A stretch of 63,692 nucleotides of DNA, counting the filler, from Collodictyon triciliatum (taxonomy: Eukaryota): NCBI GenBank assembly GCA_043381765.1. It is 9 parts of 9 records of this genome, joined end to end, with 100 filler letters (N's around TTAATTAATTAA, not from the genome) between each part and the next. Parts side by side here need not be neighbours in the genome. Positions count along the whole stretch, not along the records: positions 1 to 7,401 come from JBHJMP010003917.1; 8 more parts are not named here. One strand, written 5' to 3'. The notes beneath the pieces were generated by a model that was given only the letters and a program-made list of their open reading frames with translations, had not been told where the DNA came from and ran no database searches. Below are positions 1,904 through 44,266 of this stretch, piece by piece. Each line of letters starts with the position of its first letter. Within the stretch, counting starts at the first letter, position 1. A program made the position numbers and the translations under genes.

Positions 1904-4900
1904 ATGAAGCAATTTATGCTTTTCCTTGTATTACATGCTTCGAATATCTTAGCCACAGATTTCTTTTTTAGAATGAATCAGAGGTATTCCCCTTACAAGA
2001 TATTTTAAATAGAATATATAAACACCCTAAATTGAATTATAAAATCATGTCTGCCATACAACCAAATAATCTATACAATAGTCCTTCCAAACAGTGGTGT
2101 GGCCGTAAAAGAATTTCCATACTACAGTGAGAATTTTTTGTAAACCATAGTAATCTTCACAAATTCTGTGCATAAAAATATTTTTCCTTTTTAACCTTTT
2201 TTAAAAAAATGTTAATTTGGGAATCTACCTTTACTATTGTGTGCATAAATTTTGCAGACACCAAATACTGGCAGTAGCCCTTATTCCAGCAATGCTATTG
2301 ACAGTATCTCCCATAGTGCATGAACCATTTGATAGGTATTATCTAAATTGCTAATATTATATATACGGATCATGTATGTAATTACGAATAAATACAGGTG
2401 CCAGTACTCAAGAGATGAGCTACTATCCATGAAAATTGAGGATGCTTTTCAAATCCTTCTAACCTTGTTCGATGATACTTGCCCATGGGTCTCTGATAAA
2501 ACCAGTAAGTAAAATTTTTACAAATAAAAAAGTATTATAAATAACGCAATCTTTTTCAAAACAGTATTACTAAAGGAGTAATAGATCGTAATTTTGATTT
2601 AATTAAAATAACTGAAGTTCATCACATTTCTCAGTTATAAAATTAAAATGTTAAACAGGCAAAGAGTTGATTTCAAATCACGATGTAAAGTGGAGAAGCA
2701 GTGAATTAATATCATATCAGTATGAACTTCTTGTCCAATTATACGACTTGTTTAATGGAGATGATTGGTATAACAACTATGGATGGAAGAATAATAGTAT
2801 TCCTATTTGCGAATGGTTTGGAGTAGAGTGCTATAATTATTGTTCAAATGATGATTACATGGTAAAGATATCAAATTTTCCTTCAATAAAAAAGAATTCA
2901 CTCTCACCCTTAGCAAATATTTACGTTTCTCTTCTTTGATAACTTTTGTCACAATTTATTTTTTGATAGGATAACATGTGCCCTTTGATTGGATTATGGA
3001 TGTCAAGCATCAATATATGTGGCAATATCGAAGCAGCATCTCCTATATTCGAACAACTTCCCCTCCTTTCTTCCATAGATTTGAGTTCTAATAGGATTTA
3101 CGGGAACTTGTTGGATTTTAATGTGCCGAATCTCGCTTTCTTGGATTTATTTGGGAATAAAATCACTGGAACTATCCCAAATTTTCGATGGATTCATAAC
3201 ATTAACCATCTGGAGATTGACGGAAATATGTTAGAAGGTACCATTCCTGATTTCTCTGATATTCCGAAAACGACAACCCTGTGGATTGGATCAAGTCAAA
3301 AGATCACAGGTTTTTGTTGTTTCTCATTTTCTCTCCTACATGGTGAACTATAATGCAATTTTAAAACCACTATTACTATTCAAAATAAGTCTAGCCTGTA
3401 TAGAAAATTTTTGAGTAATTCATAAAATACGTAGGAAACCTGATAGATTTCTCAGGTTTGCCGAGTCTTCAGCTACTTGGAATTTACAACAGCGAGGTGT
3501 ACGGTTAGTTTTCTAAATACATACGAGATGAATTTAGTCAGATCATTTCTCGAATTATTTGAAGGAACTCACTCATTTAATAATAAATCAGGAACAATCC
3601 CACAGTTCAATGATATCCCTAAAGTTGAATTTATCTATCTATATAATAACCAAATCACTGGTAAGTACTTTATTTAAGCTTGATATAATTAAATTTTCTA
3701 AATATTTTATACCTAGGGACGGTCCCAGACTTTATTTTCATTCCTAAAGCGAGATTGATATATCTCTACAATAATCGATTAAGTGGTACGTATTCCATTA
3801 AATCCAATTATATTTATTCCTAAGCTAATATATACGCTGTCATCAAAGGAACAATTCCAAATTTTCGTGGCATTCCAGATATACGTTATCTCAGTCTTTA
3901 CAGCAACTATCTGATTGGTAGAATTTTTTTCCTATTTGTTGACTATACTTACCAGTCCTTTTTTCAAATATTTCTTCCAAGATGAATTAAAACAAAAATT
4001 CTCGTATATCCTATCTTTATCAGTGTAATAATTATTTCTGACCAAATATCATAAAACTTGATTTTGGTATGAATAATAATCGAATAAAGGAAAAAAATTG
4101 GTATCAATAAAAAGTTTCATTTGCACTTTTCTTTTTATTAAAGGAAGTATCCCAGATTTCAGCTTTATCCCAAATATTGAAGAGCTAAGTCTCTTTAGTA
4201 ATGAATTGGTTGGTAAGTTGCATATGTTTCAGAATAATCTTGTGTATTGTTATCTTCACTTAACAAAACCAATAGGAACGGTTCCTGATTTTAGCAACAT
4301 TCCGTATCTTTTTGAACTTTACATTTACAGCAACAGACTTACTGGTATGCACTATTTTTATGCTTTGAATCGAATAAAGGAAAAATGCACTATTTTATCA
4401 AAATTTTGTCTCCTTCACTGATTTAATTTACTGCAGGTAATGTACCAGATTTTAGGTCTATTGCGAATGTTGTGAATATTTACATTCACGGAAATCAACT
4501 TACCGGTAATTAAACGCAATTTCGTAGCACTGAATTTTCTCTTTAATTTATTTTTTATTCATATAAATAAATGAATGTATTATACGTCTCATGCAAAATT
4601 TAATATATGATTGTAGTAAATTTTGTGCAACAATATGTCTTTATAGCATCAACTTATTGAGTTGTTTTAGGAACCGTTCCTGACTTCACTCACGTGTTGA
4701 ATGTTGAAAGAATTCTACTCGATGGCAATCAATTGATAGGTGAATTCATATTTCCAGATAGATTTTGCATATAAATACACTCTTATTTGTCCCTTTATTA
4801 ATTTATTTTCTACAGGAACAATTCCGGACTTTCATTGCATATATTATCTTCAATGGATAAATTTGTTTGCCAATCGGTTGAGTGGTTTGTGTAATTTTTC

Positions 4901-7230
4901 CACGAAAACGAGGCATTTTATATTCATTCTTAATTTAAAGAAAAATTATCTTAGGAACGATTCCTTACTTCAGTAAAACCCCAAATATTCAAATCATCAA
5001 TATAGATGGAAATGAACTTAAAGGTGGTTATTATACTCAGTAAATTTCCCAAACCTCCCCCCCCCCCCCCCCCCCCTTTATATTTAATTCAACAGAAAGG
5101 GCCCTTCTGAAGCAAAAGTGTGATGGAAATACAATTTGCTGTCTAATACTTGTCACGTAATAGGAACAATTCCAAATTTCTACAATACAACGAATCTTGA
5201 ATACTTTTCAGTATATGACAATCAAATAGTAGGGACTGTTCCGAATTTCGAAAACTGTCCTCAAATAAAGGACATAGTATTATTTAGAAATAATATAAAT
5301 GGGACCCTGCCTTCTTTGAAATCGACGAGGCTTGCTAAACTAGATTTTAGTGAAAATCAAATCGCAGGGTCGATACCTCAAGATTGGTTTATTCCGTCTA
5401 TCGAATACATAGATTTATCCAGAAACGAACTCAACGGTACTATCCCCAATAATTTTGGAGATTTCATCCAACTAAAGTCACTCACTCTCTCACACAACCA
5501 ATTATATGGAAGTTTACCAGTTAACTTTTGGAATTTACCCTCTCTCATATCCATCGATTTAGTAAATAACATATTTTCTGGAGATATTGGTATTTTTCTT
5601 GTGCCTGCCACTGGAAATTACAAATACAATTACGAAAGTCTATTCGTTGATGATAATAAACTGTACGGGGAGCTTGACTGGAGAATTTTTAATTTTGTGA
5701 GTAATATAAAAACTTTGAGCTTAAAAAACAACAACATCACAAAACTTGGTGAACTCACTGGATTATTGAAGTGGAAGTCTATCGAATTATTTGGAAATCC
5801 CTTGAATGGAAATATTCCTGAATCATTTCGCGGATTTTTGAAGCTTGAATACTTGGGCTTAAATAACACTCTTATGAACCATGGAGTAGCAAACTTTCTC
5901 CCAGATTTTATGAACTATACAACAATTTACAGCTTGGAGTCTGAAACAAAGCATTACTTTTGTCCTTCTATTGAAGCAACGTCAGGTCTTGTTGGAATGA
6001 GTGTTGATTTAAGTCCGAGATACTATGATTATGAATTTTGCAAATGTTTGCCAGGATATTTCGGGTTTAGGAACAACTGTATTCAATGCCCCAGAGAGTG
6101 TCAATGTCTAGATGGACTATCTCTGAATTATTGCCACACTTCCCCAAACACTGTTGAGGTGAAATTCATCATTCCTTGCCCCCGACCAGAATCGTGCACG
6201 TCATCCGTCCCTAAAAAGGCTTCCTCATCGAACATTACATCAGAGTTTACCATACTATGTGAAGAGGGCTATGAAGGGCGCGCATGCTCAAAATGTCTTC
6301 TTGGTTATGGAAGACAAGGGCGATTATGCAGCAAATGTGATGAAGGGATTATATACTCGACTTTGATTTTAGGGTTGATTGGGTTTTTCTTTTTCATCGT
6401 GTATTTGTATTACGCGGAAACCTCAAGCTCTGGTAAGTTGTTTTCCATTCCTTGTCTAAACCCTATCATGTAATTGATTAAATCAAAATGAAATGTAATT
6501 TTTATTTGAATATTTTCATAATCACAGCCGAGCTAAGAATCATTCTGATTCACATGCAAACCTTGTCCGTTATCTCTTCTGGCCTGATTCAGTCGGAAGA
6601 TGCCGAAAAATTCATCGATGTTACTTCATCAATCGGCTCGATTCAACTTCCCAATTTTTCATGTGTTTTTCAAATAAATGATGTTTTTGATTCCCTCATA
6701 TTCAGTTTTGCCAGAATCCCATTATTCACTATTGCTGGTTTGATATTATATCATTATGGACGAGGTCACTCACAAAATAAGGTAATTATTTTTTTTCCTT
6801 TATTCGATTCAAAGAAAAAATAAGGTAATTATATTCTTTATCGAATAAAGGGGAAATGGGAATTATATTCTTTAAGTAGATTGCATATATAAACTGTACC
6901 TAATCTTTCTTGGGATAATAGGCGGTTTTTATCACTCTGAATCTCCTGTTTTTTATATACTACTCTGTTGCAAGAGAACTCTTTGGTGTTTTTGGATGCA
7001 CCATTTATGATTACGGAGAAGGCAATTGGTACATGAACTATGCTCCCTGGGTTCAGTGTAGTCCAATATCCCATGAATATAAGAAATTAATTATTATTTC
7101 TGTCCCAGTTTTTATCTCGTTTTTGGTCGGATTGCCGTGCTTTGTTTTGTGGAAAGTCAAAATCATGTTTGAAAGGCCGGGGTATGAACCGAAAGCTCGA
7201 TACGGTTTTTTGTACTTGCCGTTCAAGGAG
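1904..7230 (+). CDS. Leucine-rich-repeat receptor-like membrane protein (signal peptide, LRR N-cap, about 20+ LRRs, Cys-rich EGF-like region, multi-pass TM domain); 3' partial
   Basis: Phase-consistent GT-AG exon chain from ATG 1904 (MKQFMLFLVLHASNILA). LRRNT-type cap DDWYNNYGWKNNSIPICEWFGVEC (2659-2861), LRR exon 2970-3309, ten 69-nt LRR exons (3435-5023). Exon 5164-6432 has LxxLxLxxNxLxGxIP repeats and CEEGYEGRACSKCLLGY followed by a TM helix. TM exons 6528-6781 and 6922-7230 end RYGFLYLPFKE. The contig ends before a stop codon. Confidence 0.9.
4064..4110 (+). mobile_element. Micro-insertion copy 2, intronic
   Basis: Insert 4077-4097 TAATCGAATAAAGGAAAAAAA between TTGGTATGAATAA (4064-4076) and TTGGTATCAATAA (4098-4110), 12/13 identical. 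Confidence 0.75.
4347..4398 (+). mobile_element. Micro-insertion copy 3, intronic
   Basis: Insert 4362-4384 GCTTTGAATCGAATAAAGGAAAA between ATGCACTATTTTTAT (4347-4361) and ATGCACTATTTTAT (4385-4398), differing by one T indel. Confidence 0.8.
6774..6832 (-). mobile_element. Micro-insertion copy 4; its direct repeat duplicates a splice donor
   Basis: Insert 6790-6816 reads TTCTTTGAATCGAATAAAGGAAAAAAA on the minus strand, between exact 16-bp repeats AAAATAAGGTAATTAT (6774-6789, 6817-6832). Confidence 0.85.
6827..6874 (+). mobile_element. Micro-insertion copy 5, abutting copy 4 in the opposite orientation
   Basis: Insert 6841-6860 TCGAATAAAGGGGAAATGGG between exact 14-bp repeats AATTATATTCTTTA (6827-6840, 6861-6874). 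Confidence 0.8.
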
Positions 7231-7401
7231 GTAATTACCATATATGTACCGATTTACTCTTGTTACTCGAATGGGCAGATATTGGATTTACTCCCACTCT
7301 TTTGTTTGTTTGTTTTTTGTTTGTTTGTTTTTTGTTTGTTTGTTTTTTGTTTGTTTGTTTTTTGTTTGTTTGTTTTTTGTTTGTTTGTTTTTTGTTTGTT
7401 T

Positions 7402-7501
7402 NNNNNNNNNNNNNNNNNNNNNNNNNNNNNNNNNNNNNNNNNNNNTTAATTAATTAANNNNNNNNNNNNNNNNNNNNNNNNNNNNNNNNNNNNNNNNNNN
7501 N
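7402..7501. other. Artificial contig-joining spacer
   Basis: 44 N + TTAATTAATTAA (stops in all six frames) + 44 N. Confidence 0.98.

Positions 7502-7573
<72 letters not shown>
7502..7573. repeat. (GA)n microsatellite at contig end
   Basis: Direct reading. Confidence 0.95.
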
Positions 7574-7577
<4 letters not shown>

Positions 7578-7755: not shown

Positions 7756-10700
7756 TTAATCATAATCTATACCAGTCAGTTCCGAGTGGCTACGCAGGCG
7801 AGAAAATGCTTCTTTGTCACCTAGTGAAGCTGCCTTTTGATAAAATTCTATCGCTGTGTCTACACTCTTTCGAACACCGAATCCTTTCATATGGCAGTCC
7901 CCAAGAGAGGTAAGTGCCGGGACGTAGCCCGAGTTTGCAGCTATCGTAAAGCTCACAAATGCCTGCTCTGGATTAAGATATTTTGGAAAACTAGCATAAA
8001 TTAACCCTAGATTCCACCAAGCACACCCCGTTCCGAAAGATGCAAGGGCATGTATGCGGTTGACTGCGTCACTAACACCATGTTTCACGGAGCTACGATA
8101 CATCTCACATGCTTTTTCGACATTCATCGGCACACCAAATCCTTTTTCAAGATATTCTCCGTACAGATACTCTGACTCTCCGTGAGCTAGAGAAGCTGAT
8201 TTGAATAGCCACTTGTGTGATTCTTTTGGATCGACCCTCGTACCGATTCCTTCTTTGTAGCATTTGGCCAACAAGTTCTGGGTCCTAATTGACCCGTTAG
8301 CGAAATCATCCAGATCCCCGATCGACTGCAGTGAATTTGATTCGATGAGCTCTGCCATATCTTGAATACCTCTCTTGCAGTTTCTTCGGGCTGAACGATA
8401 AATTGCATCAAAAGCCGGTTTACGATCACATTTGGCATGGGTAATGAGGGCTTCTCTGGCTTTGGTGAATCCTTGCTGAGCCAACCTTGATGTGATATGA
8501 AATGCCTCTGGTATGCCTTTGATACACAGACTTTTCAGCTCAGCCAAGGAAGGTTCATATCCCCTTTGAGCTGACAGCTCATACCATCTACAGCCTTCTT
8601 CATAGTTCAGGACGCCATGCCTTTCCTTGGAGTAGTAATCTCCAAGGGCCTTCTGAACAAACAACAAGCCTTTAAACCCAATTTCACGAATCCTATCCAA
8701 CGCTCTAGAATATGCATTATCTTTCAAAATCCTAAACAATGACTCTAAACACTCTCTACTTCCCATCTGACCTCCCAAAGAATAAAGTTCAACTGATTCT
8801 TCCAAGTTCTTCTCATCTTTCAGGCCTTCATATAGCTTACCTAGTTCATAAAGAGCTGGTACATATTTCATCTTTGCAGCATTCTTTAACAAATCTGTCC
8901 GGCTGTCCAATATTTTTTGGTCTTTTGAATACTCCACCAAATTTGCAGCTTCGAACTGCATGCAAGGCACACTCAGTGTCAAAAAAGGCTCAATAAGACT
9001 CAACGAGCTTTTTCCGATTTGCAAGCTGCATAAAGTTCTACTCCGGTCGCTTACAATTCGATAAGTGGACCACACATCAAAGTATTCAATAGCATAGGCA
9101 AAGCATTCTATGGCTTCATTGAATCTCCCTAGTGATAGGCAATACTCACCATAAAAGGATACACATGTAATCCCCCATATTGATTTTACAACTCTGTTAC
9201 GAACATATAAATCTTTAAGGAGCTTATCAAATTCCTTATCAAAGGGAATCTTATGTCTCAGAATCCTGTCAATCTCTTGAACTACTTCGAACTCATAATT
9301 TCCATGGGCCAGTTGGGGGTGTATAGTGAAAAGCATTCGCATGAGCAAGTGGCAACCATAATGAAGTGGTTGTAATTGAATACAAGAGCGAACAATTTTG
9401 AAAGACAAGATGTACTTTCCGATGCTAAAGCACTCAAGCGCTCTCTTGAAAGTGATAAATATATCCCTCTTCAAAATTTCAGGTAAATTAGATAGCATTA
9501 AGCCATTTCTGTCATATTGTTGATAAGTGTTGACGAATTTTCGACGGGAAGTAGTATTTTCGATAAAATAGGTTGAATCTGGGGGAAATACATCAGATGA
9601 ATATCCATCATATGAGCTCTGCTGAGAACATTCCGGTGAAAATGAGCTCGAGCCATCAATCACCTCGGTTGTATTAAGCTCTGATTTGTAAACACCAATA
9701 GAATCAAAATACGATGCAATGTCCTTCAACGACGAATGATCTTGAGCCGCTAGCTTGGCCAAATCATTCCTATCTATTAGTTCCCCATTCAAAAAAGCGC
9801 GTCTTTTAACTTCCCAAATAACTTCACTCTGTTCCAAGAATTCTTTCTGTTGGTCATATATTTGAGATAACTTTAAAAGGCCATATCCGTATTCCAGAAT
9901 GCATAGCTTTTCCATCAAAGGCAAACACTCTCTGTCTCCTAGGATATATCCCATGTAATATAAATCAACAGCTCTGCTGGTACTTTGCTCCACGCAATGA
10001 CCTTCATAATAGCATAAACCTAGGTAACGGAAGCTGCTTGGATCAGATTTACTATTCAACCTCTCCAACCTTGTAATAGCTTCGACAATACCAGACTTTG
10101 CAGCCTTAAAATAATACTCGCCGGCTTTCTGGGGTTGAGAATACGTTGAACGGTATTCCGTATCCAATATCTCTGCAAACAAAAAAATCGCTTGACTGAT
10201 GCCGTAACCCGCTAATACTTCAAGTTGCTGGACTGCAGGTTCGTACTTTTCCAAAGCGGCCTTGTAATAGCACTGTGCTGCATCGTAAAAGTTTTGTTCT
10301 ACACAATGACCAAGCTCAAAACACACTCCTTTGTAATACATAGCTGATGGAACTCCGGCATTGGCATGATGTTCTATCTTTGAATATCCCTCTTGATTAT
10401 TCATAGATGCACATCGATGATATTTTTCTACGGCGATGTTCAAGTCTAATGAGACGATTACACCAGTTTCATAAAGCATTCCCATAGAAATTATGGCCTT
10501 AATGTGACCTTTTTCCTCCATTTTGACGAGTTTTGTCAGTGCTTCTTTATGGCCTTGTTTCGCAGCAGTTAAATACCAATCGATTGCTGTATACCAGTCT
10601 TGCTTAACACAGAGCCCATTTGTATAAGCATCACCTATGTACACAATTGCAGATGCAAAGCCACCTTGAGCTAATTCATGGATTGCATCAAATGACGGTT

Positions 10701-13700
10701 TGTATTTCATCTGCATCGATCTAAGGAAGTAGCTTAATGCAGTTTCTCTGTTTGGTGCGACAGACCATCCGTTCAGGTAGCATAATCCCATGTGGTGATG
10801 CGCCTTTTGAGGATAAATGGAGCACAGACGCGTCAGTCCTGCAATACCACTCCTGATTCCAAGCTTACATGCATTGGAGAAATGATGTGTGGCTTTTTCG
10901 TAGTCTATCGGTAATCCGTTACCTTTGGAATACATCGACCCTAGAAGTTCATGAGATAAACCACACGATTGATTCGATGCTTTTATTGCCCAGTCAAATA
11001 CTTTGTCCCATCGGAAAGATTCCCCAACTTTTACTAATGAGTAAGCCACAGCTACCTGATACTGGGATATTGGCGAACCTTGTTCTGCCAACCCTTCTAA
11101 CTTAGATAGTGCAAAAGGAGAAAGCTGCTCATCTACATATATGACCTTCATGTACCAAAATAAAGCCTTTTCTTCATTTTGAGATGTTCCAATGCCATTC
11201 TCGAAGCATATAGCAAGCTCATACATCGATTTGGCATCGCCAATAATGGCACCCTTTTCGAAGCTCTGAAAAGCAAGGGAAGTGTTTTCACCCACTGACA
11301 AACCTTTGTAGTAACACAATCCAAGCATATACCATGCATAGGCATAGCCCATTTGTGCGATGTCTTCTAATTTTTTAAAAGCGAGCGGGAAGTCATTTTT
11401 GCAAATCTGAAACAAAACATCTGCTATGGATTTTATCGAGACTTCAACAGTTGGGTAATACAGACTGTAACAAGCAGAAATATATAGACCCCAGGGATTT
11501 TTCTCCGATGAAAGTTGCTTCGTTTCCTCTTTGGCTTCATCGCATCCTTCCATGGTAGCCTGATACAGTAATTCCATGGATTTATCCAAGTCAATGTCAA
11601 TATTCCCTACCCCCAAAGCATGCACCTGGCTTAGCAAATATTTTGCATATGCATTTTGTTTTTCAGTGGCATGATGTTGAATTCGATCATATGCCTCTTT
11701 ATGTCCCATTTCAAAAGCACAGTAGTAATAATCCAACGCCAGCCGAAAAATCTTTTGGTGTACTATACCGAGTTCGTACAATCTGCCCATACAAAAAAGC
11801 GATCGTGCATCTTTCTCTAAGCAATATTTCTGGATGAAATCCAAAGAAAGCTCTTCACCTAACAAAGCAGACTCTGTAAAATACTGAATGGCTTTTTCTC
11901 GATCTTTTTTATGTATTAAGCCCCTTTCATATAGACGTCCGATGAAATGAATAGCGAGCTTTTCTTTTTTTTCTGACAGTCTCTCAAGCTCTTGCATAGA
12001 TATGATATCATTCATTTCAGTCGCATTGTAATAGCATCGCACAGCCTCTCGGATATCAACACCAGTCTGATATCCATTTTCGTGACAGTATCCTAGGTGG
12101 CGCATTGCAAAGGTATTTGTTTTGGAAAGTTTTTCTAGCTCTCTGAAACCACTGAGAACTCTGTTCTGTGCTGAGCGAAAATACCATAAAATGTAATTCT
12201 CTGGAGGTGAATTGTATTGCTCATGGGTTTGCATGTAGCGGCCCATGTAATACTGAGCCAACCCATTGTTGCTTTCAGCAATTGGTTTGATGTATTCAAA
12301 TGCATCATGGTTTCCATTCAGTAGGCAGAAGCTGATATGGTCCAACGCTTCATTCTTGTTGACTGGGCATCCAAGTCCTTCCCACATCATTTTGCCTAGA
12401 GCAAATTCTGTATGCACATTTTTATTTTTCGACGATTTTATCAGATTGAATGCCTTCGAATAATCAGCCGGAACATAGTTTCCATTGAAATAAATTAGAC
12501 CTAGCTCAGACATTGCAATATCATCTTTTTTCTCGGATGAGGATGTGAATAAATCAAAAGCTTGTTTCATATCCCTTTCCACAAAAATACCATCCTTGTA
12601 TAAAAATGCCAATTTACGCTGTCCTGCAGCATTTCCGGCCGAAGAAGCCTGCTTGTAATTCTCAAAAGCTCGTTTTAGATCTTTCGAAATTTTTTCACCC
12701 TTTTCATAAATCTCGCCAAGAGCCAAGAAGGCCTTTACATGAGACTGTGCCGCTGCTAGGTTGTAGTATATGATAGCTAGGTGAATATCTGATACAAGAC
12801 CAAAAATTCCATGTTCGTGATAATGTCCATACAAATATTGAGATTTGGCATATCCTGTATGTGAAGAGTACTTTATGAGTGATGTGAATTTTTTTGGATC
12901 TTGGTCCTCTATGTGTTCATTCAAGCATATCTTTCCAAGTTTATATTGAGCGCTGGGGTGACCGCTGTATGCTGCTCTCTTCAGATAAAAAACGGCTTTT
13001 TCATTGTTCTTTCTACCCCGAAGCTTGATGTAGTACGCTCCAAGGAGGAACGATGCTTCTATTCCTCCTTTGTCACTGGCTTTCGTCCACGAGACTACAC
13101 ATCTGTCCGCTTCAGTGTGATGGACATCCTTTCTTAGAGCCAGTCCATGGTATGTCATGGGAAATACATCCTCACCTTCCCCAATCTTGGCTAAGTAGTG
13201 TGCATCAATATGATCTCCTTTGAGGATATTCCAGTATTTCAAAAACAAAAGGATAAGTTTTTGGGTTTCTCTTTTCATCGTTTTAGAAGTAAAATGGTAG
13301 GAAAAACTCTTGAGGGATTCTTGAATCATCAATTTATGTTCGTCAGAGTATTTTTGTGGGCATCTGTTTAAATAAGTTTTTAATGTCTGACAAGTATCCT
13401 TGAAAGATGGCTTTGGTAAAAAGCTCGGGAATTCTCTGTAAACAAAATGCCGTAATACGCAGACGGTAAATTCGTTTGTACAATCTTCACAGAATCGGCA
13501 AAAAAGGTCGAAAAGCCTATCGGATTTGCGAGCGATATTTGCACATAATATTTCAAATGCAACTTGTGTATCCTTTTCTTCATTTCGAACAGATATTGAG
13601 TCGTAAAAGTTCTCTGCTTGAGCCTGAAAATCTTTCGAATAATCATCCAATATAATTGAGTTTCTCTTGGTAGCAATATCAACAATCTGAGGACCATTAT

Positions 13701-14832
13701 AATCTTTTGAATTGATTTCGTATATCAAAATGGGATATCTTGTTATTTTTGGATGTGCCAATAGATCTTCCTTTGACATAAAGTCCACATAATCTATGTG
13801 TCTGAAACGAGGAAAGCATCCACGAATCGAGGCTAAGCTAGCCTGGTCTTTGTAAGTTCTAATGATGCACAAGGCGTCGTAGATATTGCCGATCGATGCT
13901 CTGCAATCTGGATTGCTTTTTAGGCACGCTCTTATAACCGTAATGATTGAAATGGGAATACTGGGCGATATGATGTGAGATTGAGGGGCTTTGGATTGCT
14001 TGGTTATTTGGTCATAGCTCAATCCCTCGTAGGGCACGTAGCCACTAAATAGTGCCAAGGTCACGAGACCAAAAGAGTAAATATCTTCCGATTCGTCAAC
14101 GTATCCGCTCTTAATTGCCTCAGGAGAGCTCCAATTGATGCAACGTGCTGCGACACTGGCCGAGAAGGTGTTATCTCTATGTGATTCACCCGTTGAAACA
14201 CTTTTGTCATCTTCGGGGAGATGTCCAAGCCTTGCTAAGTCCTTAAAGCTGGTAGACAAAGAGTTCGCATCAAGTGGTATTTGCGCAGTTGATGTGTGAG
14301 GCACTTGGCGTTCGTCAGACATGTTTGTGATACTCAAACCATTGGCCACACTTGGTTGATAGAAGACTCCATAATTCGTAAGCTTTATGCCTCTGTCAGA
14401 GACAAGAATGTTTGATGGGTTCAAGTTACCATGGCAAATGTGTGGACTCCATCCATGCAGAGCCTGTAGGCCCAAGCATAATTGAAAGGTGAACTCAACG
14501 AGTCTTTCGTGTGGGGGCGACCTTCCAACCCTGATTTCCTGGGCTATAAAGTCTTCCAGCAATCGCCCTTCTACAGCCTCTGTCACCATAAAAAGATCGG
14601 TTCCATCCACCTTGCAAAGCCCAACATACTCTGTGACGTTGGGATGGCGCACGCCGAAGTATGGCACAAGTGTTGCTACCATGTCTCTCTCGACAGCTGG
14701 GTTGTGAGCAGGATTGTCAGACCCACTGCCACACATTGGTTTCAAAAAAACTGGGCGAGATTCATAGGTTGCTGCGTAGGAAGCGCCGTGTGGAGAGCCA
14801 TCAAGGGCCAGGGGATTATCGACTTTGAGCAT
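7756..14832 (-). CDS. Large intronless protein: N-terminal kinase-like (pseudokinase) domain plus a long Sel1-like repeat array
   Basis: Single 7-kb ORF; first ATG at 14832, and a possible acceptor TTTTAG just upstream means it may be a terminal exon. Kinase motifs VFLK, HGNLNPSNILV, KLTNYG, WSSPE, DIYSFG. Many Sel1 units, e.g. AFLALGEIYEKGEKISKDLKRAFENYKQASSAGN and ALTSLGDCHMKGFGVRKSVDTAIEFYQKAASLG. Confidence 0.92.
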   Translation of the reverse strand: MLKVDNPLALDGSPHGASYAATYESRPVFLKPMCGSGSDNPAHNPAVERDMVATLVPYFGVRHPNVTEYVGLCKVDGTDLFMVTEAVEGRLLEDFIAQEIRVGRSPPHERLVEFTFQLCLGLQALHGWSPHICHGNLNPSNILVSDRGIKLTNYGVFYQPSVANGLSITNMSDERQVPHTSTAQIPLDANSLSTSFKDLARLGHLPEDDKSVSTGESHRDNTFSASVAARCINWSSPEAIKSGYVDESEDIYSFGLVTLALFSGYVPYEGLSYDQITKQSKAPQSHIISPSIPISIITVIRACLKSNPDCRASIGNIYDALCIIRTYKDQASLASIRGCFPRFRHIDYVDFMSKEDLLAHPKITRYPILIYEINSKDYNGPQIVDIATKRNSIILDDYSKDFQAQAENFYDSISVRNEEKDTQVAFEILCANIARKSDRLFDLFCRFCEDCTNEFTVCVLRHFVYREFPSFLPKPSFKDTCQTLKTYLNRCPQKYSDEHKLMIQESLKSFSYHFTSKTMKRETQKLILLFLKYWNILKGDHIDAHYLAKIGEGEDVFPMTYHGLALRKDVHHTEADRCVVSWTKASDKGGIEASFLLGAYYIKLRGRKNNEKAVFYLKRAAYSGHPSAQYKLGKICLNEHIEDQDPKKFTSLIKYSSHTGYAKSQYLYGHYHEHGIFGLVSDIHLAIIYYNLAAAQSHVKAFLALGEIYEKGEKISKDLKRAFENYKQASSAGNAAGQRKLAFLYKDGIFVERDMKQAFDLFTSSSEKKDDIAMSELGLIYFNGNYVPADYSKAFNLIKSSKNKNVHTEFALGKMMWEGLGCPVNKNEALDHISFCLLNGNHDAFEYIKPIAESNNGLAQYYMGRYMQTHEQYNSPPENYILWYFRSAQNRVLSGFRELEKLSKTNTFAMRHLGYCHENGYQTGVDIREAVRCYYNATEMNDIISMQELERLSEKKEKLAIHFIGRLYERGLIHKKDREKAIQYFTESALLGEELSLDFIQKYCLEKDARSLFCMGRLYELGIVHQKIFRLALDYYYCAFEMGHKEAYDRIQHHATEKQNAYAKYLLSQVHALGVGNIDIDLDKSMELLYQATMEGCDEAKEETKQLSSEKNPWGLYISACYSLYYPTVEVSIKSIADVLFQICKNDFPLAFKKLEDIAQMGYAYAWYMLGLCYYKGLSVGENTSLAFQSFEKGAIIGDAKSMYELAICFENGIGTSQNEEKALFWYMKVIYVDEQLSPFALSKLEGLAEQGSPISQYQVAVAYSLVKVGESFRWDKVFDWAIKASNQSCGLSHELLGSMYSKGNGLPIDYEKATHHFSNACKLGIRSGIAGLTRLCSIYPQKAHHHMGLCYLNGWSVAPNRETALSYFLRSMQMKYKPSFDAIHELAQGGFASAIVYIGDAYTNGLCVKQDWYTAIDWYLTAAKQGHKEALTKLVKMEEKGHIKAIISMGMLYETGVIVSLDLNIAVEKYHRCASMNNQEGYSKIEHHANAGVPSAMYYKGVCFELGHCVEQNFYDAAQCYYKAALEKYEPAVQQLEVLAGYGISQAIFLFAEILDTEYRSTYSQPQKAGEYYFKAAKSGIVEAITRLERLNSKSDPSSFRYLGLCYYEGHCVEQSTSRAVDLYYMGYILGDRECLPLMEKLCILEYGYGLLKLSQIYDQQKEFLEQSEVIWEVKRRAFLNGELIDRNDLAKLAAQDHSSLKDIASYFDSIGVYKSELNTTEVIDGSSSFSPECSQQSSYDGYSSDVFPPDSTYFIENTTSRRKFVNTYQQYDRNGLMLSNLPEILKRDIFITFKRALECFSIGKYILSFKIVRSCIQLQPLHYGCHLLMRMLFTIHPQLAHGNYEFEVVQEIDRILRHKIPFDKEFDKLLKDLYVRNRVVKSIWGITCVSFYGEYCLSLGRFNEAIECFAYAIEYFDVWSTYRIVSDRSRTLCSLQIGKSSLSLIEPFLTLSVPCMQFEAANLVEYSKDQKILDSRTDLLKNAAKMKYVPALYELGKLYEGLKDEKNLEESVELYSLGGQMGSRECLESLFRILKDNAYSRALDRIREIGFKGLLFVQKALGDYYSKERHGVLNYEEGCRWYELSAQRGYEPSLAELKSLCIKGIPEAFHITSRLAQQGFTKAREALITHAKCDRKPAFDAIYRSARRNCKRGIQDMAELIESNSLQSIGDLDDFANGSIRTQNLLAKCYKEGIGTRVDPKESHKWLFKSASLAHGESEYLYGEYLEKGFGVPMNVEKACEMYRSSVKHGVSDAVNRIHALASFGTGCAWWNLGLIYASFPKYLNPEQAFVSFTIAANSGYVPALTSLGDCHMKGFGVRKSVDTAIEFYQKAASLGDKEAFSRLRSHSELTGIDYD

Positions 14833-14897
14833 GATCAAAAACCTAAAAGTGTTTTTTTTTTTTTTTTTTTTTTTTTTCCCCTTTTTTTTTTTTTTTT

Positions 14898-14997
14898 NNN
14901 NNNNNNNNNNNNNNNNNNNNNNNNNNNNNNNNNNNNNNNNNTTAATTAATTAANNNNNNNNNNNNNNNNNNNNNNNNNNNNNNNNNNNNNNNNNNNN
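14898..14997. other. Artificial contig-joining spacer
   Basis: 44 N + TTAATTAATTAA + 44 N. Confidence 0.98.
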
Positions 14998-24894: not shown

Positions 24895-25915
24895 GGAAAA
24901 GATTGTAATTGGAATTTCCAGAGGAATGGCTCACCTGCATTCTATGCGCCCCCCGATACTGCACCGCGACCTGAATCCCACAAATATTTTAGTACAAGAA
25001 TTATTTCTTGAATTATGTCCGCAGCAAAAAGAATACTTTTTTTTTGGTCTTATCGATTTTAAATTATCAGATCTTCTATTCAAATTATAGCTATAGTTAT
25101 AGTTATAGTTATAATCCCCTTTTCTTGCATTTTTTTTCATACGTTTACTATTAATTTTTGTTATTTAATTTTTGTTATTTAATTTTTGTTATTTAATTTT
25201 TGTTATTTAATTTTTGTTATTTAATTTTTGTTATTTAATTTTTGTTATTTAATTTTTGCTATTTAATTTATGTTATTTGATTTTTGTTATATAATTTTTG
25301 TTATTTAATTGATTGATTGATTGATTGATATATTATGTATATTTTGCATGAAAAAATGCAGTATTATGATTCATTCAAAAAAATTCCCCTAATTTTTTGC
25401 ATATGTCAAATATCTATGTGAAACTACAGCTCTCTTCCGATGGCAACCCAAAGATATGCGACTTCGGATTGTGTAAGACGAAATCTAAAGGTATCACCAT
25501 GAGCAAGGTGGGGAGCATAGGGTATCAAGCTCCTGAGGTTTGCAACTCCTGTGGAATCCTGATTCAGCTCGGGCGTAGACCATTGTGCTTAAATTGTAAT
25601 TTAACTCAATTTATGCAGATTCTACTCGGCCTCGATTACGATGAGAAGGTGGACGTCTACAGCTTTGGTGTTGTCTTGTGGGAAATATGCAGTAGAAAGA
25701 TTGCATATGAGGGTGTCGAACCTCTCGCAATAGCGCATTTTGTTTGTGAAGGAAAGAGGTTAGACCCTCTACCCAGCGATAGCGAACCCATATTAGTTAG
25801 AATGGTGAGGGACTGTTGCGAGCGCGAACCCAGCCGCCGTCCCGATTTTTACCTCCTTAGTGACTTGCGAGAGTACCACACAAGAGTTCGGGTGAGGTCA
25901 GAGACATCTAGCTGA
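24895..25915 (+). CDS. Tyrosine-kinase-like (TKL) protein kinase, C-terminal three exons (5' partial)
   Basis: Exons 24895-24991 (ISRGMAHLHSMRPPILHRDLNPTNIL), 25430-25537 (KICDFGL...GSIGYQAPE) and 25619-25915 (YDEKVDVYSFGVVLWEI...CCEREPSRRPDF...*). Confidence 0.9.
25151..25310. repeat. Intronic (TTAATTTTTGTTAT)n 14-mer minisatellite
   Basis: Direct reading. Confidence 0.9.
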
Positions 25916-43009: not shown

Positions 43010-44266
43010 TCAACACGCAAGGGAAATCTCACCAGACACCAGGGCAGAGTTGAAATCAACCAGGACTCGGCCTACACCTGACGCATACGATTCCTCTGGA
43101 CGAAGCCTGAGTGTGGACAACGGGCTTTGCGAATAAAAAGGAGCCTCTTCACTAGTTGCCTCCCAACCCTCGTGATCTGAATCAGTAAATCGATGCTTGA
43201 ACGAAGCCACCATGGGCACTTTTGGACTTGCGAAAAAGGCACTGCGAATTACTAAAAAATCTTCTTGGCCAACGATGGATGTCTGAACACCCAAAAGAGT
43301 CCCCAGCCGGGTCATCGGCGGCAGATTCCCGCCACTGGGTAGCTCGATCATCAACAAGAAAACAGCAGCTCCAGTCGTGTAATCGACATCGACCTTGTAG
43401 ACGTAGATTCTTCCAATCCCGTTTTCTCTTCCTGGAGCGCCGACAGCAGCATATGCGTATGGTTGAGACTGAACCGAGCCAGCCAGCGCCAAAGCCACAG
43501 AAGCCCCAAATTCATCAGATTCTGTGGCGCTTGGGTACTCCGCCTGATTGCTTGGCCTCCAAACACCATCTGAATTTCTGCGAACAAAAGAATATGCGGC
43601 CCCAGCGAGCGCAGTCGAGCCCGTTCTTGCATACGGCGCCCCAACAACTATAATGCCGCCAGCCACTGCCACTGCAGCGCCTGCCTCCTGCATGGATGAG
43701 CCAGGTACTGGAAGGAGACTCATCTGACAAGAAAATGCTCCTTCCTCTCTCCCTTGGTTGGCCCTGCTTGAGGCGTCCAACGCACAGGCGCAGTCGCCCA
43801 CATAAGCCCTGCCCTGCCACATATCGGCGTCGGGCGCCCCAACAACCACAATCGCCTCCGTGTCTGAAAGGTCCCGTCCAAAGCTGGTTGCAGACACATC
43901 AGCCACTGCAACTGCAGCGCCCACACGCTCGGAAAAATGCTGGCCAGCCCCCTGGAGACTCAGCTGCAATCCGCTCCATCCACTCAAGCGGCGATACACA
44001 AAGGCTGCGCCTGCAGCGCCCGTCTCGGCTGCTCCGATGCAGATGTAGTCTTCCGATGCTGCTGCGCTGCTTCCAAAGCCGCGTGTGTCGGGTCCTGCTG
44101 CATCTGCTCCGTTCAGCTCCAGTAACGGCTGCCATGTTTGTGGCGCAGAATACATGCACCTGAGTACTGCTACGGCGATGAAAATTGACAGGTTGTGGAG
44201 TCGACAGCGACCGGATCGGCTTGTACGCATCGAGCAATTATGATCTCTGCAGATGCTCCCTGACAT
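43010..44266 (-). CDS. Secreted FG-GAP repeat (integrin-alpha-like beta-propeller) protein; probably the first exon, ending at donor 43033
   Basis: Hydrophobic leader LSIFIAVAVLRCMYSA. Repeats FGSSAAASEDYICIGA, VGAAVAV...IVVVGAPDADMWQGRAYV, AGAAVAVAGGIIVVGAPYA...AGAAYSF, EFGASVAL...AAVGAPGRENGIGRIYVY. TCTG|GTGAGA donor mid-blade near the ORF end. Confidence 0.85.
   Translation of the reverse strand: MSGSICRDHNCSMRTSRSGRCRLHNLSIFIAVAVLRCMYSAPQTWQPLLELNGADAAGPDTRGFGSSAAASEDYICIGAAETGAAGAAFVYRRLSGWSGLQLSLQGAGQHFSERVGAAVAVADVSATSFGRDLSDTEAIVVVGAPDADMWQGRAYVGDCACALDASSRANQGREEGAFSCQMSLLPVPGSSMQEAGAAVAVAGGIIVVGAPYARTGSTALAGAAYSFVRRNSDGVWRPSNQAEYPSATESDEFGASVALALAGSVQSQPYAYAAVGAPGRENGIGRIYVYKVDVDYTTGAAVFLLMIELPSGGNLPPMTRLGTLLGVQTSIVGQEDFLVIRSAFFASPKVPMVASFKHRFTDSDHEGWEATSEEAPFYSQSPLSTLRLRPEESYASGVGRVLVDFNSALVSGEISLAC

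What the first reader, a model, noticed from the sequence alone, without database searches (positions are those of the whole stretch)
3435..5023. Array of ten identical-length 69-nt symmetric exons, one variable LRR each
Seen: exons 3435-3503, 3592-3660, 3717-3785, 3849-3917, 4144-4212, 4276-4344, 4437-4505, 4671-4739, 4816-4884 and 4955-5023 are all exactly 69 nt and phase 1-1, splitting the same Gly codon. Each encodes a 23-aa LRR, GT(I/V)P(D/N)FxxIPxxxxIx(L/I)xxNx(L/I)x. The framework is conserved but the beta-strand surface positions differ in every unit (QLLGIYN, EFIYLYN, RLIYLYN, RYLSLYS, EELSLFS, FELYIYS, VNIYIHG, ERILLDG, QWINLFA, QIINIDG). The flanking LRRs are in large uninterrupted exons. 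Established: one-repeat-per-exon LRR arrays underlie exon shuffling in brown-algal LRR-ROCO candidate immune receptors, and modular LRR assembly underlies agnathan VLRs. Inference: any subset can be skipped, duplicated or swapped in frame, so this may be a combinatorially diversified recognition receptor (prey, pathogen or kin) in a protist.
Basis: partly seen in the sequence, partly recalled or inferred. Interest (0 to 1): 0.72.

Follow-up and report, generated by a model that had tools for sequence, protein, structure and literature searches.

The report
One-repeat-per-exon LRR receptor gene
A protist surface-receptor gene has ten of its leucine-rich repeats each in its own 69-base exon; the layout is real and neat, but it looks like an old inherited trait of a large gene family, not a proven way of mixing receptors by splicing.

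Summary
All ten exons are 69 nt, have AG/GT splice borders and split a Gly codon in phase 1. They sit in an 18-exon open model of 1110 codons, 1904-7230, cut short by a scaffold gap. The spliced product is collinear with transcript-derived Diphylleia rotans proteins.

The protein reads signal peptide, LRRNT cap, about 22 plant-type LRRs, Cys-rich stalk, then a multi-pass membrane domain distantly tied to Pfam PF06011. At least 15 Trinity genes in Diphylleia share this build.

The combinatorial reading is not supported:
- The units are old, with mean 52% nt identity.
- No relic LRR exons lie in the introns, and no paralogue lies in the window.
- None of 45 Diphylleia isoform proteins lacks a whole 23-aa unit.
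- Intron-retaining Diphylleia transcripts imply the same Gly phase-1 introns, so the layout is inherited.

Two points fit a diversifying receptor family. Unit number differs between paralogues. Near-identical Diphylleia variants differ mainly at exposed LRR positions, 11 of 15.

Verdict: a new variant of a known kind, of moderate interest.

The parts
1904..1983 (+). Probable first coding exon: start codon and signal-peptide-like N-terminus. The boundary is inferred.
   Evidence: The phase fits the next exons, and the whole 18-exon model is open. There is no homology support for this exon itself.
2258..2335 (+). Probable exon 2, a hydrophobic stretch. The boundary is inferred.
   Evidence: AG/GT borders and phase 2-2 are consistent with the neighbouring exons.
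2398..2504 (+). Exon 3, a conserved N-terminal Cys-flanked motif shared with Diphylleia family proteins.
   Evidence: tblastn with P0154: 50% identity over 34 aa, E 2.8e-4. P0104 and P0113 give weaker hits at the same place.
2659..2861 (+). Exon 4, the LRR N-terminal cap (LRRNT_2).
   Evidence: Pfam PF08263 scores 22.1 bits against a cut-off of 20.7. It aligns to the cap of P0104.
2970..3309 (+). Exon 5, the first four or so LRRs in one uninterrupted 340-nt exon. It ends in phase 1 in a Gly codon.
   Evidence: Pfam LRR_4 and LRR_1 hits; alignment; phases.
3435..3503 (+). 69-nt LRR exon e1. It is divergent and matches by position the unit of P0104 in the same place.
   Evidence: Its score to Diphylleia unit 1 is the second highest in its row (41, against 43 for unit 9).
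3592..3660 (+). 69-nt LRR exon e2.
   Evidence: i-E 1.2e-5 with the Diphylleia-unit HMM.
3717..3785 (+). 69-nt LRR exon e3.
   Evidence: i-E 0.011.
3849..3917 (+). 69-nt LRR exon e4.
   Evidence: i-E 1.6e-7.
4144..4212 (+). 69-nt LRR exon e5.
   Evidence: i-E 2.3e-5.
4276..4344 (+). 69-nt LRR exon e6.
   Evidence: i-E 1.1e-7.
4437..4505 (+). 69-nt LRR exon e7.
   Evidence: i-E 1.4e-4.
4671..4739 (+). 69-nt LRR exon e8.
   Evidence: i-E 5.5e-6.
4816..4884 (+). 69-nt LRR exon e9.
   Evidence: i-E 0.0081.
4955..5023 (+). 69-nt LRR exon e10.
   Evidence: i-E 0.051.
5164..6432 (+). Large exon holding about ten further LRRs, the Cys-rich stalk and the first membrane helix.
   Evidence: Translation P0001. 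Pfam LRR_8 at 1.8e-18. The best solved relatives are plant LRR-kinase ectodomains: GSO1 at 1.2e-70, then FLS2 and PEPR1. The closest homologues are P0002 at 58% and Diphylleia P0003 and P0004 at 39-42%.
6528..6781 (+). Exon in the multi-pass membrane domain.
   Evidence: Collinear with P0104 and P0120; phases.
6922..7230 (+). Last visible exon, the most conserved segment of the membrane domain. Its 3' border coincides with an inferred intron in Diphylleia DN7662.
   Evidence: phmmer gives 58 relatives at E<=1e-3, the best 49% identical. P0109 and P0119 stop one residue after the same ...YKE motif.
7403..7502 (.). Scaffold gap: runs of N around a TTAATTAATTAA linker. It removes the C-terminal part of the gene, roughly 250 aa judged by relatives.
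   Evidence: Sequence. No family hits lie anywhere else in the window.

Best explanation
The ten exons are ordinary, probably constitutive coding exons of a germline-encoded surface receptor-like gene.

Protein build: signal peptide, LRRNT cap, about 22 plant-type LRRs with a 23-residue period, a Cys-rich stalk, and a multi-pass membrane domain distantly related to Pfam PF06011.

The one-LRR-per-exon layout, with a phase-1 intron inside the Gly codon that opens each repeat, is an inherited trait of a large gene family. That family is so far seen almost only in Diphylleia rotans transcriptomes. The layout is not a recent or active diversification device.

Its likely consequence is evolutionary. 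Whole repeats can be gained or lost without breaking the frame, which fits the differences in unit number between family members. Recognition diversity in the family would come from many paralogues and from substitutions on the concave LRR face.

Shown: the exon anatomy, the protein architecture, family membership, the age of the units, the lack of shuffling relics, and the lack of unit-skipping isoforms in the relative.

Inferred: constitutive splicing in the source organism, ligand binding by the concave face, and signalling through the membrane domain. That signalling could be ion or solute flux by analogy with fungal PF06011 proteins, but no solved fold matches the domain.
For: Anatomy:
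- 10 of 10 exons are 69 nt, AG/GT and phase 1-1.
- The 18-exon model has 1110 open codons and consistent phases.

Family:
- The spliced model is 32-38% identical over about 950-1120 columns to the 22 best-scoring Diphylleia-type proteins, and 30-40% over all 30 listed. The best is P0120 at 36.9% over 1065 columns.
- In a tree the window gene lies inside a 99/97-supported clade of 24 rows that holds 14 Diphylleia rows.

Inherited introns:
- P0105 and P0106 run past an LRR-final Gly into unrelated residues and a stop. So does P0115.
- P0114 starts in unrelated sequence that joins at an LRR-initial Gly.
- P0109 and P0119 stop right after the motif where window exon 6922-7230 ends.

Old units:
- Pairwise nucleotide identity averages 52% (range 33-65).
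- Array units are no closer to each other (43.1% aa) than to the upstream unsplit unit (40.6%).
- No DNA-level tandem repeat is present.

No shuffling relics:
- No LRR-like hit below E=60 lies in any array intron on either strand.
- The independent HMM finds none either.
- Among 210 tblastn matches from 12 family proteins, none lies outside 2400-7400.

No unit skipping: in 45 isoform proteins of 11 Trinity groups, the only internal in-frame difference with clean flanks is 12 aa.

Membrane domain:
- 58 relatives at E<=1e-3.
- 27 of the 34 long ones carry LRR domains.
- PF06011 hits occur in 9 of 55 scanned, 3 at or above the curated cut-off.
- A family profile links to those proteins at E 2.7e-54, 4.8e-24 and 2.6e-18.
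Against: - No RNA data from the window's organism were available, so constitutive splicing is assumed, not shown.
- The Diphylleia isoforms are short-read Trinity assemblies. I saw only those in the 90%-identity clusters that I looked up. Repeat arrays assemble poorly, so skipped forms could be missed.
- One 12-aa in-frame difference starts exactly at an LRR-initial Gly (DN449, P0190 against P0192). Some alternative splice-site use inside the array therefore probably exists in the relative.
- Order conservation of the inner units between the window gene and P0104 is not significant (p=0.18). Long-term turnover or shuffling of inner units is therefore not excluded.
- Clustered differences inside single LRR units between otherwise identical Diphylleia transcripts could reflect exon-variant mosaics and not alleles.
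- The window and Diphylleia sequences give no direct PF06011 hit at E<=0.1.
- A confident model of family member P0155 (pLDDT 87) has no PDB match: 0 hits at E<=0.001, and the best has E 0.45 and TM 0.17-0.19. The signalling mechanism is therefore open.
Confidence: 0.6

Rival explanations
1. The array is a cassette set used combinatorially by exon skipping, so that one gene yields many receptor isoforms with different LRR combinations.
For: All ten exons are symmetric (phase 1-1) and equal in length, so every subset is in frame. Donor sites are heterogeneous: GTAAGT twice, the rest varied. Brown-algal ROCO genes with 72-nt LRR exons do show splice variants with different LRR content (PMC11378527, passages). 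One 12-aa in-frame difference begins at an LRR border in Diphylleia DN449.
Against: None of 45 isoform proteins in 11 Diphylleia gene groups lacks 23 aa or a multiple of it. Their differences are truncations, inferred intron retention and alternative C-termini. Donor-site variety is the same in the non-array introns of the gene. No sequence shared by the array introns was seen: direct-repeat search of 3300-5300 found only the unit starts and the 18-nt motif in 2 introns. The recurring motif GAATCGAATAAAGG lies in only 2 of the 9 introns inside the array and also occurs elsewhere in the window. Ectocarpus LRR-kinases share the layout yet show no reshuffled or inactivated exons (PMC3341825, section 15 read), and SERK genes encode their domains in separate exons within a conserved 11-exon structure (PMC3061892, passages).
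Confidence: 0.12
2. Evolutionary exon shuffling as in brown-algal ROCO genes. LRR exons are duplicated, deleted and exchanged within and between paralogues at a high rate, producing fast-changing binding surfaces.
For: Unit number differs between family members. Two whole-unit gaps separate the window gene from P0104, and about 18-35 LRR cores are counted among 16 proteins. Inner units show no significant order conservation against P0104 (p=0.18). In Diphylleia, variant differences cluster in single LRR units at exposed positions, 11 of 15 with binomial p 3e-5.
Against: No pair of the ten exons exceeds 65% nucleotide identity. No relic or reverse-strand LRR exons lie in the introns, and no paralogue lies within 63.7 kb. 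The terminal units (e1 and the Cys-bearing unit in the large exon) correspond by position to those of P0104. Loss of order signal is expected anyway for 23-residue units at about 36% overall identity.
Confidence: 0.15
3. The array is an annotation artefact or a decaying pseudogene, not a working gene.
For: The gene is cut by a scaffold gap at 7403-7502, and its C-terminal quarter is missing from the window. No transcript evidence from this organism was seen.
Against: The model has 1110 open codons, all 17 acceptors are AG and all 18 donors are GT, and phases are consistent. It is collinear with expressed homologues across 890-1065 columns. Exon and intron GC differ.
Confidence: 0.03

Closest known systems
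Brown-algal LRR-ROCO genes with 'type I' LRR exons (Ectocarpus, Saccharina)
   Same: Each has one LRR per exon, equal exon length, the same intron phase throughout, and an exon that opens at the Gly of the GxxP motif. The arrays reach ten or more exons. (PMC3341825, section 15 read; PMC11378527, passages.)
   Different: The algal exons are 72 nt, which the 2024 paper reports as phase 2. Here they are 69 nt in phase 1. The algal genes have relic and reverse-strand LRR exons in introns, recombined arrays between recent duplicates, and splice variants. None of the first two was found here, and the third was not seen in the relative. The signalling part there is a cytosolic ROC-COR GTPase. Here it is a membrane domain behind a secreted ectodomain.
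Ectocarpus LRR-kinases with repetitive LRR exons
   Same: They have one LRR per exon with no detectable reshuffled or inactivated exons (PMC3341825, section 15). That is the state found here.
   Different: They carry a kinase output domain. Some use a different exon register (type II).
Vertebrate glycoprotein-hormone receptor and LGR genes
   Same: An LRR ectodomain encoded by a run of small in-phase exons is followed by a hinge and a multi-pass membrane domain in large exons. This is cited as exon duplication from one prototype exon (PMC11378527 passage citing Koo 1991; further details recalled).
   Different: Their introns are phase 2, exon sizes vary, and the membrane domain is a rhodopsin-type 7TM. 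Here no 7TM family was among the Pfam hits listed for the membrane-domain proteins scanned, and the fold search gave no significant match.
Plant SERK / LRR-RLK II genes
   Same: The LRRs are plant-type with an LRRNT_2 cap. SERK genes have 11 exons with conserved boundaries, and each exon tends to encode one domain, including single LRRs (PMC3061892, passages). Solved plant LRR-kinase ectodomains are the best sequence matches of P0001.
   Different: SERKs have only five LRRs of 24 residues and a kinase output. They are not described as a diversification system.
Fungal PF06011 'TRP-like' membrane proteins (Flc1, TrpR)
   Same: The membrane domain of this family links by profile to proteins that pass the PF06011 cut-off. 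Fungal members are tied to calcium homeostasis (PMC9600462 and PMC8618638, search listing and abstract openings only).
   Different: The window and Diphylleia sequences give no direct Pfam hit. The ectodomain is LRR plus a Cys-rich stalk. No solved structure resembles the model.
Agnathan variable lymphocyte receptors
   Same: They have a modular LRR binding surface (recalled, not from a call).
   Different: VLRs are assembled somatically from flanking cassettes into an incomplete germline gene. Here the germline gene is complete and spliceable, and no spare cassettes lie in the window.

Membership tests
One-LRR-per-exon symmetric exon array | Each repeat lies in its own exon with canonical splice borders. 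| tested here: met
   10 of 10 exons have AG/GT borders.
One-LRR-per-exon symmetric exon array | Equal exon length and the same phase at both ends. | tested here: met
   All are 69 nt and phase 1-1.
Dynamically shuffled LRR exon arrays (brown-algal ROCO type) | Closely related, inactivated or reverse-strand LRR exons lie in the introns of the array. | tested here: not met
   Six-frame HMM scans with two different models find no intronic hit below E=60 and none at all.
Dynamically shuffled LRR exon arrays (brown-algal ROCO type) | Recent exon copies: near-identical exons within or between loci. | tested here: not met
   The highest pairwise nucleotide identity is 65% and the mean is 52%. No second family locus lies in the window. 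Other loci of the source genome could not be seen.
Dynamically shuffled LRR exon arrays (brown-algal ROCO type) | Splice variants with different LRR exon content. | not testable with these tools
   No RNA data exist for the source organism. In the relative, 0 of 45 isoform proteins lack a whole unit.
Dynamically shuffled LRR exon arrays (brown-algal ROCO type) | Positive selection on exposed LRR residues. | tested here: inconclusive
   No orthologous nucleotide sequences were available. At protein level in Diphylleia, 11 of 15 variant sites fall on x positions of LxxLxLxxN. The pairs were chosen after the fact and dN/dS was not computed.
Dynamically shuffled LRR exon arrays (brown-algal ROCO type) | A ROC-COR GTPase output domain. 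| tested here: not met
   Pfam shows only LRR families on the window's pieces and relatives.
Plant-type LRR receptor ectodomain | An LRRNT_2 cap followed by LRRs with a GxIP motif. | tested here: met
   PF08263 scores 22.1 bits against a cut-off of 20.7. LRR_8, LRR_4 and LRR_1 all pass their cut-offs. The best PDB sequence matches are plant LRR-kinase ectodomains.
Plant LRR receptor kinase | A cytoplasmic protein kinase domain. | tested here: not met
   No kinase domain occurs in the model or in the full-length relatives scanned. The C-terminus of the window gene itself is hidden by the gap.
PF06011 (TRP-like, Flc/Pkd2 type) membrane domain | A match to the Pfam model at the curated cut-off. 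| tested here: inconclusive
   There is no direct hit for window pieces or P0003 at E<=0.1. Three distant family members pass: P0169 at 28.9, P0171 at 29.0 and P0174 at 31.3 bits, against 28.5. Six more hit weakly. The family profile reaches the three that pass at E 2.7e-54 to 2.6e-18.
Canonical TRP, polycystin or rhodopsin-type 7TM receptor fold | Structural similarity of the membrane domain to solved members. | tested here: not met
   The P0155 model has pLDDT 87.1 and pTM 0.85. Foldseek against PDB gives 0 matches at E<=0.001, and the best hit has E 0.45 and TM 0.17-0.19.
VLR-type somatic LRR assembly | An incomplete germline gene flanked by donor LRR cassettes. | tested here: not met
   The germline ORF across the array is complete and spliceable. 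No LRR cassettes lie elsewhere in the window.

The most novel reading that the evidence does not exclude
This gene belongs to an undescribed class of protist surface receptors. In it, a plant-type LRR ectodomain is wired directly to a multi-pass membrane domain of a fold with no solved relative, possibly a ligand-gated transport or channel module.

The family would use its cassette-exon LRR array, together with many paralogues and hypervariable concave-face residues, to build a diversified repertoire. That repertoire could serve recognition of prey, pathogens or kin. Some of the diversity would arise from alternative use of LRR exons or exon variants.
Probability: 0.15. Interest if true: 0.8.

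Novelty: new variant of a known kind. Interest (0 to 1): 0.45.

Why it matters
One-repeat-per-exon LRR arrays are already known from brown algae, vertebrate hormone receptors and plant SERKs, so the layout alone is not new.

What is new here:
- It occurs with 69-nt phase-1 exons in a deep-branching heterotrophic protist lineage. Its closest sequenced relative in this family is Diphylleia (CRuMs).
- The LRRs are joined to a Cys-rich stalk and a multi-pass membrane domain that has no solved structural relative.
- I found no paper describing this family. Searches for 'Diphylleia rotans' with 'leucine-rich repeat' and for 'DUF7630' each returned 0 papers.

If the family proves to be a diversifying recognition system, it would add an independent case of LRR-based surface recognition outside plants, animals and brown algae. 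It would also give a tractable test of whether cassette exons are used for diversity or only tolerated.

Tried and rejected
- Pfam on each 22-aa exon translation alone. Only 1 of 10 gave a hit (LRR_4, E 0.076), because the pieces are too short to be informative.
- First structure job: P0112 with 8 aligned sequences. It gave pLDDT 41 and pTM 0.28, so it was unusable and I did not search with it.
- Second structure job: P0155 with 34 sequences. The model was confident, but no PDB fold matched it.
- Sequence search of the membrane segment against PDB found nothing at E<=1.
- Order-conservation test of inner units against P0104 was not significant (p=0.18), so it is uninformative either way.
- Test of whether array units form a tighter group than the flanking unsplit units found no clear difference: 43.1% against 40.6, 34.8 and 35.3%. 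There is therefore no evidence for a separate burst of exon duplication.
- Rfam on the whole window found no match.
- Pfam on 20 other long ORFs found only a kinase fragment and an FG-GAP ORF. The FG-GAP ORF is not a family member by tblastn.
- The last homologue search, with longer lengths, gave only one protein, P0198.
- Literature search for symmetric phase-1 LRR exons returned only unrelated papers. PMC5296948 and PMC10588794 held nothing useful on exon-per-LRR phase.
- I considered whether GAATCGAATAAAGG is a splicing selector. I set this aside because it lies in only 2 of the 9 introns inside the array and also elsewhere in the window.

Not run or not available:
- I did not scan the genome-contig collection, which holds bacteria and archaea only.
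- No eukaryotic genome collection was available, so intron positions in relatives rest on inferred intron-retaining transcripts.

Full report
OBSERVATION. Each is preceded by AG and followed by GT. Each begins with the last two bases of a Gly codon whose first base ends the previous exon, so all are phase 1-1.

The exons are embedded in a model of 18 exons from an ATG at 1904 to 7230. The model has 1110 open codons. All 17 acceptors are AG, all 18 donors are GT, and the phases are consistent throughout.

Given the local base composition, about 7% of random codons would be stops, so ten open 23-codon frames have P about 3e-8. Exon GC is 0.36. Ten of the 11 introns inside and bordering the array have GC 0.18-0.29, and the poly-C intron has 0.43.

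An HMM built only from 19 LRR units of two Diphylleia proteins finds e2-e9 at i-E 1e-7 to 0.011. It finds e10 at 0.051 and part of e1 at 0.06. It searched 2113 six-frame pieces of the window, and nothing outside this gene scored below 0.17.

The flanking LRRs are indeed in large exons, 2970-3309 and 5164-6432. At the DNA level the array is not a tandem repeat.

WHAT THE GENE IS. The exon at 2659-2861 carries an LRRNT_2 cap. The large exon carries LRR_8, LRR_4 and LRR_1 matches, a Cys-rich region and a first membrane helix. Its best solved relatives by sequence are plant LRR-kinase ectodomains: GSO1 at 1.2e-70, then FLS2 and PEPR1.

Two further exons, 6528-6781 and 6922-7230, encode part of a multi-pass membrane domain. 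The gene then runs into a scaffold gap at 7403-7502, made of N runs around a TTAATTAATTAA linker. No remainder of the gene lies elsewhere in the window.

The closest homologues of the large exon are an unnamed 294-aa protein (58% identity) and two EukProt transcripts of Diphylleia rotans (39-42%). The spliced model, computed in a script, is collinear with the full-length Diphylleia protein P0104 at 35.8% over 890 columns. Two gaps of 23 and 24 residues show that the window gene has two whole LRR units more. The model is 32-38% identical to the 22 best-scoring Diphylleia-type proteins, and 30-40% over all 30 listed.

THE FAMILY. A phmmer search with the 103-aa membrane segment against 1.84 billion representatives gave 58 proteins at E<=1e-3 and 34 at E<=1e-10.

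I scanned 34 long hits with Pfam:
- 27 carry LRR domains.
- 4 also carry FG-GAP_2.
- 1 carries NIDO.
- 1 carries DUF7630.

Of the 16 proteins I looked up, 13 are Diphylleia rotans Trinity products from 15 Trinity genes. One is from Cavostelium, one from Rhodelphis, and one is unnamed.

In a maximum-likelihood tree the window gene sits inside a 99/97-supported clade of 24 rows that includes 14 Diphylleia rows. It is a weakly supported sister (83/68) of a 7-row Diphylleia clade. The family therefore diversified before, or independently of, the split between the window's organism and Diphylleia.

THE MEMBRANE DOMAIN. The window pieces and P0003 give no direct Pfam hit for it. Nine of 55 scanned relatives do hit PF06011 ('TRP'), three of them at or above the curated cut-off. 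A 17-sequence family profile reaches those three at E 2.7e-54, 4.8e-24 and 2.6e-18, scaled to the whole library. The protein atlas gives look-alike clusters in several protist groups with PF06011, DUF7630 or Ephrin_rec_like on a minority of members.

A first model (P0112) was poor, with pLDDT 41. A model of the membrane-only member P0155 with 34 aligned sequences was confident, with pLDDT 87.1 and pTM 0.85, and shows about nine to ten long helices and a small hairpin. Foldseek against PDB gave no match at E<=0.001, and the best hit had E 0.45 and TM 0.17-0.19. The domain is therefore a PF06011-like family by sequence chaining, with no solved structural relative, and its activity is unknown.

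IS THE ARRAY A DIVERSITY MACHINE? Against that reading:
1. The ten exons are 33-65% identical in nucleotides (mean 52%) and 13-57% in residues. They are no more alike than they are to the upstream unsplit unit. So there are no recent duplications.
2. No LRR-like relics lie in the array introns on either strand with two different HMMs. Such relics were the core evidence for shuffling in Ectocarpus ROCO genes (PMC3341825, section 15 read).
3. No second family gene lies in the window.
4. The layout is inherited, as Diphylleia isoforms imply. P0105 and P0106 read past an LRR-final Gly into unrelated residues and a stop, and so does P0115. P0114 begins in unrelated sequence that joins at an LRR-initial Gly. 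P0109 and P0119 end one residue after the motif where window exon 6922-7230 ends. These are inferences from proteins, because the nucleotides were not available.
5. Among 45 isoform proteins in 11 Trinity groups, no internal in-frame difference of 23 aa or a multiple was found. The differences are truncations, inferred intron retention, alternative C-termini, and one 12-aa difference that starts at an LRR-initial Gly.

In favour of a diversifying receptor family, though not of splicing:
- Unit number varies. The window gene has two more units than P0104, and a regex count gives about 18-35 LRR cores among 16 family proteins.
- The order of inner units is not significantly conserved against P0104 (p=0.18). 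This is uninformative at this divergence.
- Near-identical Diphylleia variants differ in tight clusters inside single LRR units. Of 15 unique sites, 11 fall on the x positions of LxxLxLxxN, where 5/23 would be expected (binomial p 3e-5). In the five LRR-variant pairs (P0134 against P0192, P0194 and P0195; P0184 against P0185; P0120 against P0177) there were no differences in the Cys-rich and membrane parts.
- Caveats on the last point: I chose the pairs after seeing the data. I left out the differences in the cap and in an irregular stretch (residues 711-770). One other pair (P0124 against P0182) differs only near the C-terminus. No dN/dS could be computed.

COMPARISON WITH KNOWN SYSTEMS.
- Brown-algal ROCO genes are the nearest analogue. 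They have one LRR per 72-nt exon opening at the Gly of GxxP, with shuffling relics and splice variants (PMC3341825; PMC11378527, passages).
- In the same alga, LRR-kinases have the layout without any sign of shuffling. That is the state seen here.
- Gonadotrophin-receptor genes (cited in PMC11378527) and SERK genes (PMC3061892, passages) show the same exon-per-repeat idea in stably organised receptor genes: the SERK exon structure is described as conserved, and I recall, from no call, that both are normally spliced as a whole.
- VLRs (recalled) work by somatic assembly, which the complete germline ORF here excludes.

VERDICT. The structural inference, in-frame modularity, is correct. The functional inference, combinatorial diversification, is unsupported by every test I could run, but no RNA data from the source organism exist to refute it.

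The most likely reading is a stable, germline-encoded LRR ectodomain whose cassette layout is an old family trait. That layout eases gain and loss of whole repeats over evolutionary time.

The protein architecture is LRR, then Cys-rich stalk, then a PF06011-like membrane domain of unmatched fold. Neither it nor its large family in Diphylleia appears in the literature searched: (with 'leucine-rich repeat'; 'DUF7630') each returned 0 papers. This is the more novel part of the finding.

Noticed in passing
window 1796, 4077, 4367, 6797(-), 6838, 41511, 41960(-), 50235(-): The short motif GAATCGAATAAAGG, with a core of about 23 nt, occurs 8 times at up to 2 mismatches. Shuffles give 0.86 on average, and 0 of 100 shuffles reach 8. 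Five copies lie in or just upstream of this gene, including an inverted pair in intron 6782-6921. The copies share no longer flanks.
   Followed up: partly
window 4213-4275: This 63-nt intron between e5 and e6 is a multiple of three and has no in-frame stop, so retaining it would add 21 residues in frame. Its GC of 0.29 and the lack of an insertion in relatives suggest it is still an intron.
   Followed up: partly
window 5057-5076: A run of 20 C lies inside the intron between e10 and the large exon. It raises that intron's GC to 0.43.
   Followed up: no
window 7300-7575: The scaffold join has a (TTTTGTTTGTTTGTT)n array, N runs around a TTAATTAATTAA six-frame-stop linker, and then (GA)n. The LRR gene's C-terminal part is lost here, so the two sides may be unrelated contigs.
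   Followed up: partly
window 7756-14949 (-): An intronless 2397-codon open frame carries a split protein kinase domain near its N-terminus and at least 12 Sel1 repeats (Pfam Sel1 9.8e-92). It is a very large kinase plus Sel1 protein lying next to the LRR gene.
   Followed up: no
P0134 vs P0195 (residues 560-570), P0184 vs P0185 (241-249), P0134 vs P0192 (537-611), Diphylleia rotans EukProt: Transcripts that are otherwise 99-100% identical differ in tight clusters inside single LRR units, mostly at exposed strand positions (11 of 15). This could mean allelic diversifying selection, very recent paralogues, or alternative exon variants.
   Followed up: partly
P0190 vs P0192 (Diphylleia DN449), residue 548: A 12-residue in-frame difference begins exactly at an LRR-initial Gly. 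It is consistent with an alternative acceptor inside an LRR exon or with an assembly artefact.
   Followed up: no
window, whole: The window is rich in microsatellites and low-complexity arrays, with 30 TRF rows at score >=150. Region 15.4-17.3 kb is open in many frames because of AAAG and AAC repeats. Rfam finds no RNA family.
   Followed up: no
window 43013-44290 (-) and 25370-25912 (+): One open frame has FG-GAP_2 repeats (8.3e-9), and a separate fragment is a kinase (PK_Tyr_Ser-Thr, 2.7e-16). FG-GAP is fused to LRRs in four Diphylleia-type family members, but tblastn with family proteins, three of them FG-GAP-bearing, found no match to this ORF.
   Followed up: partly
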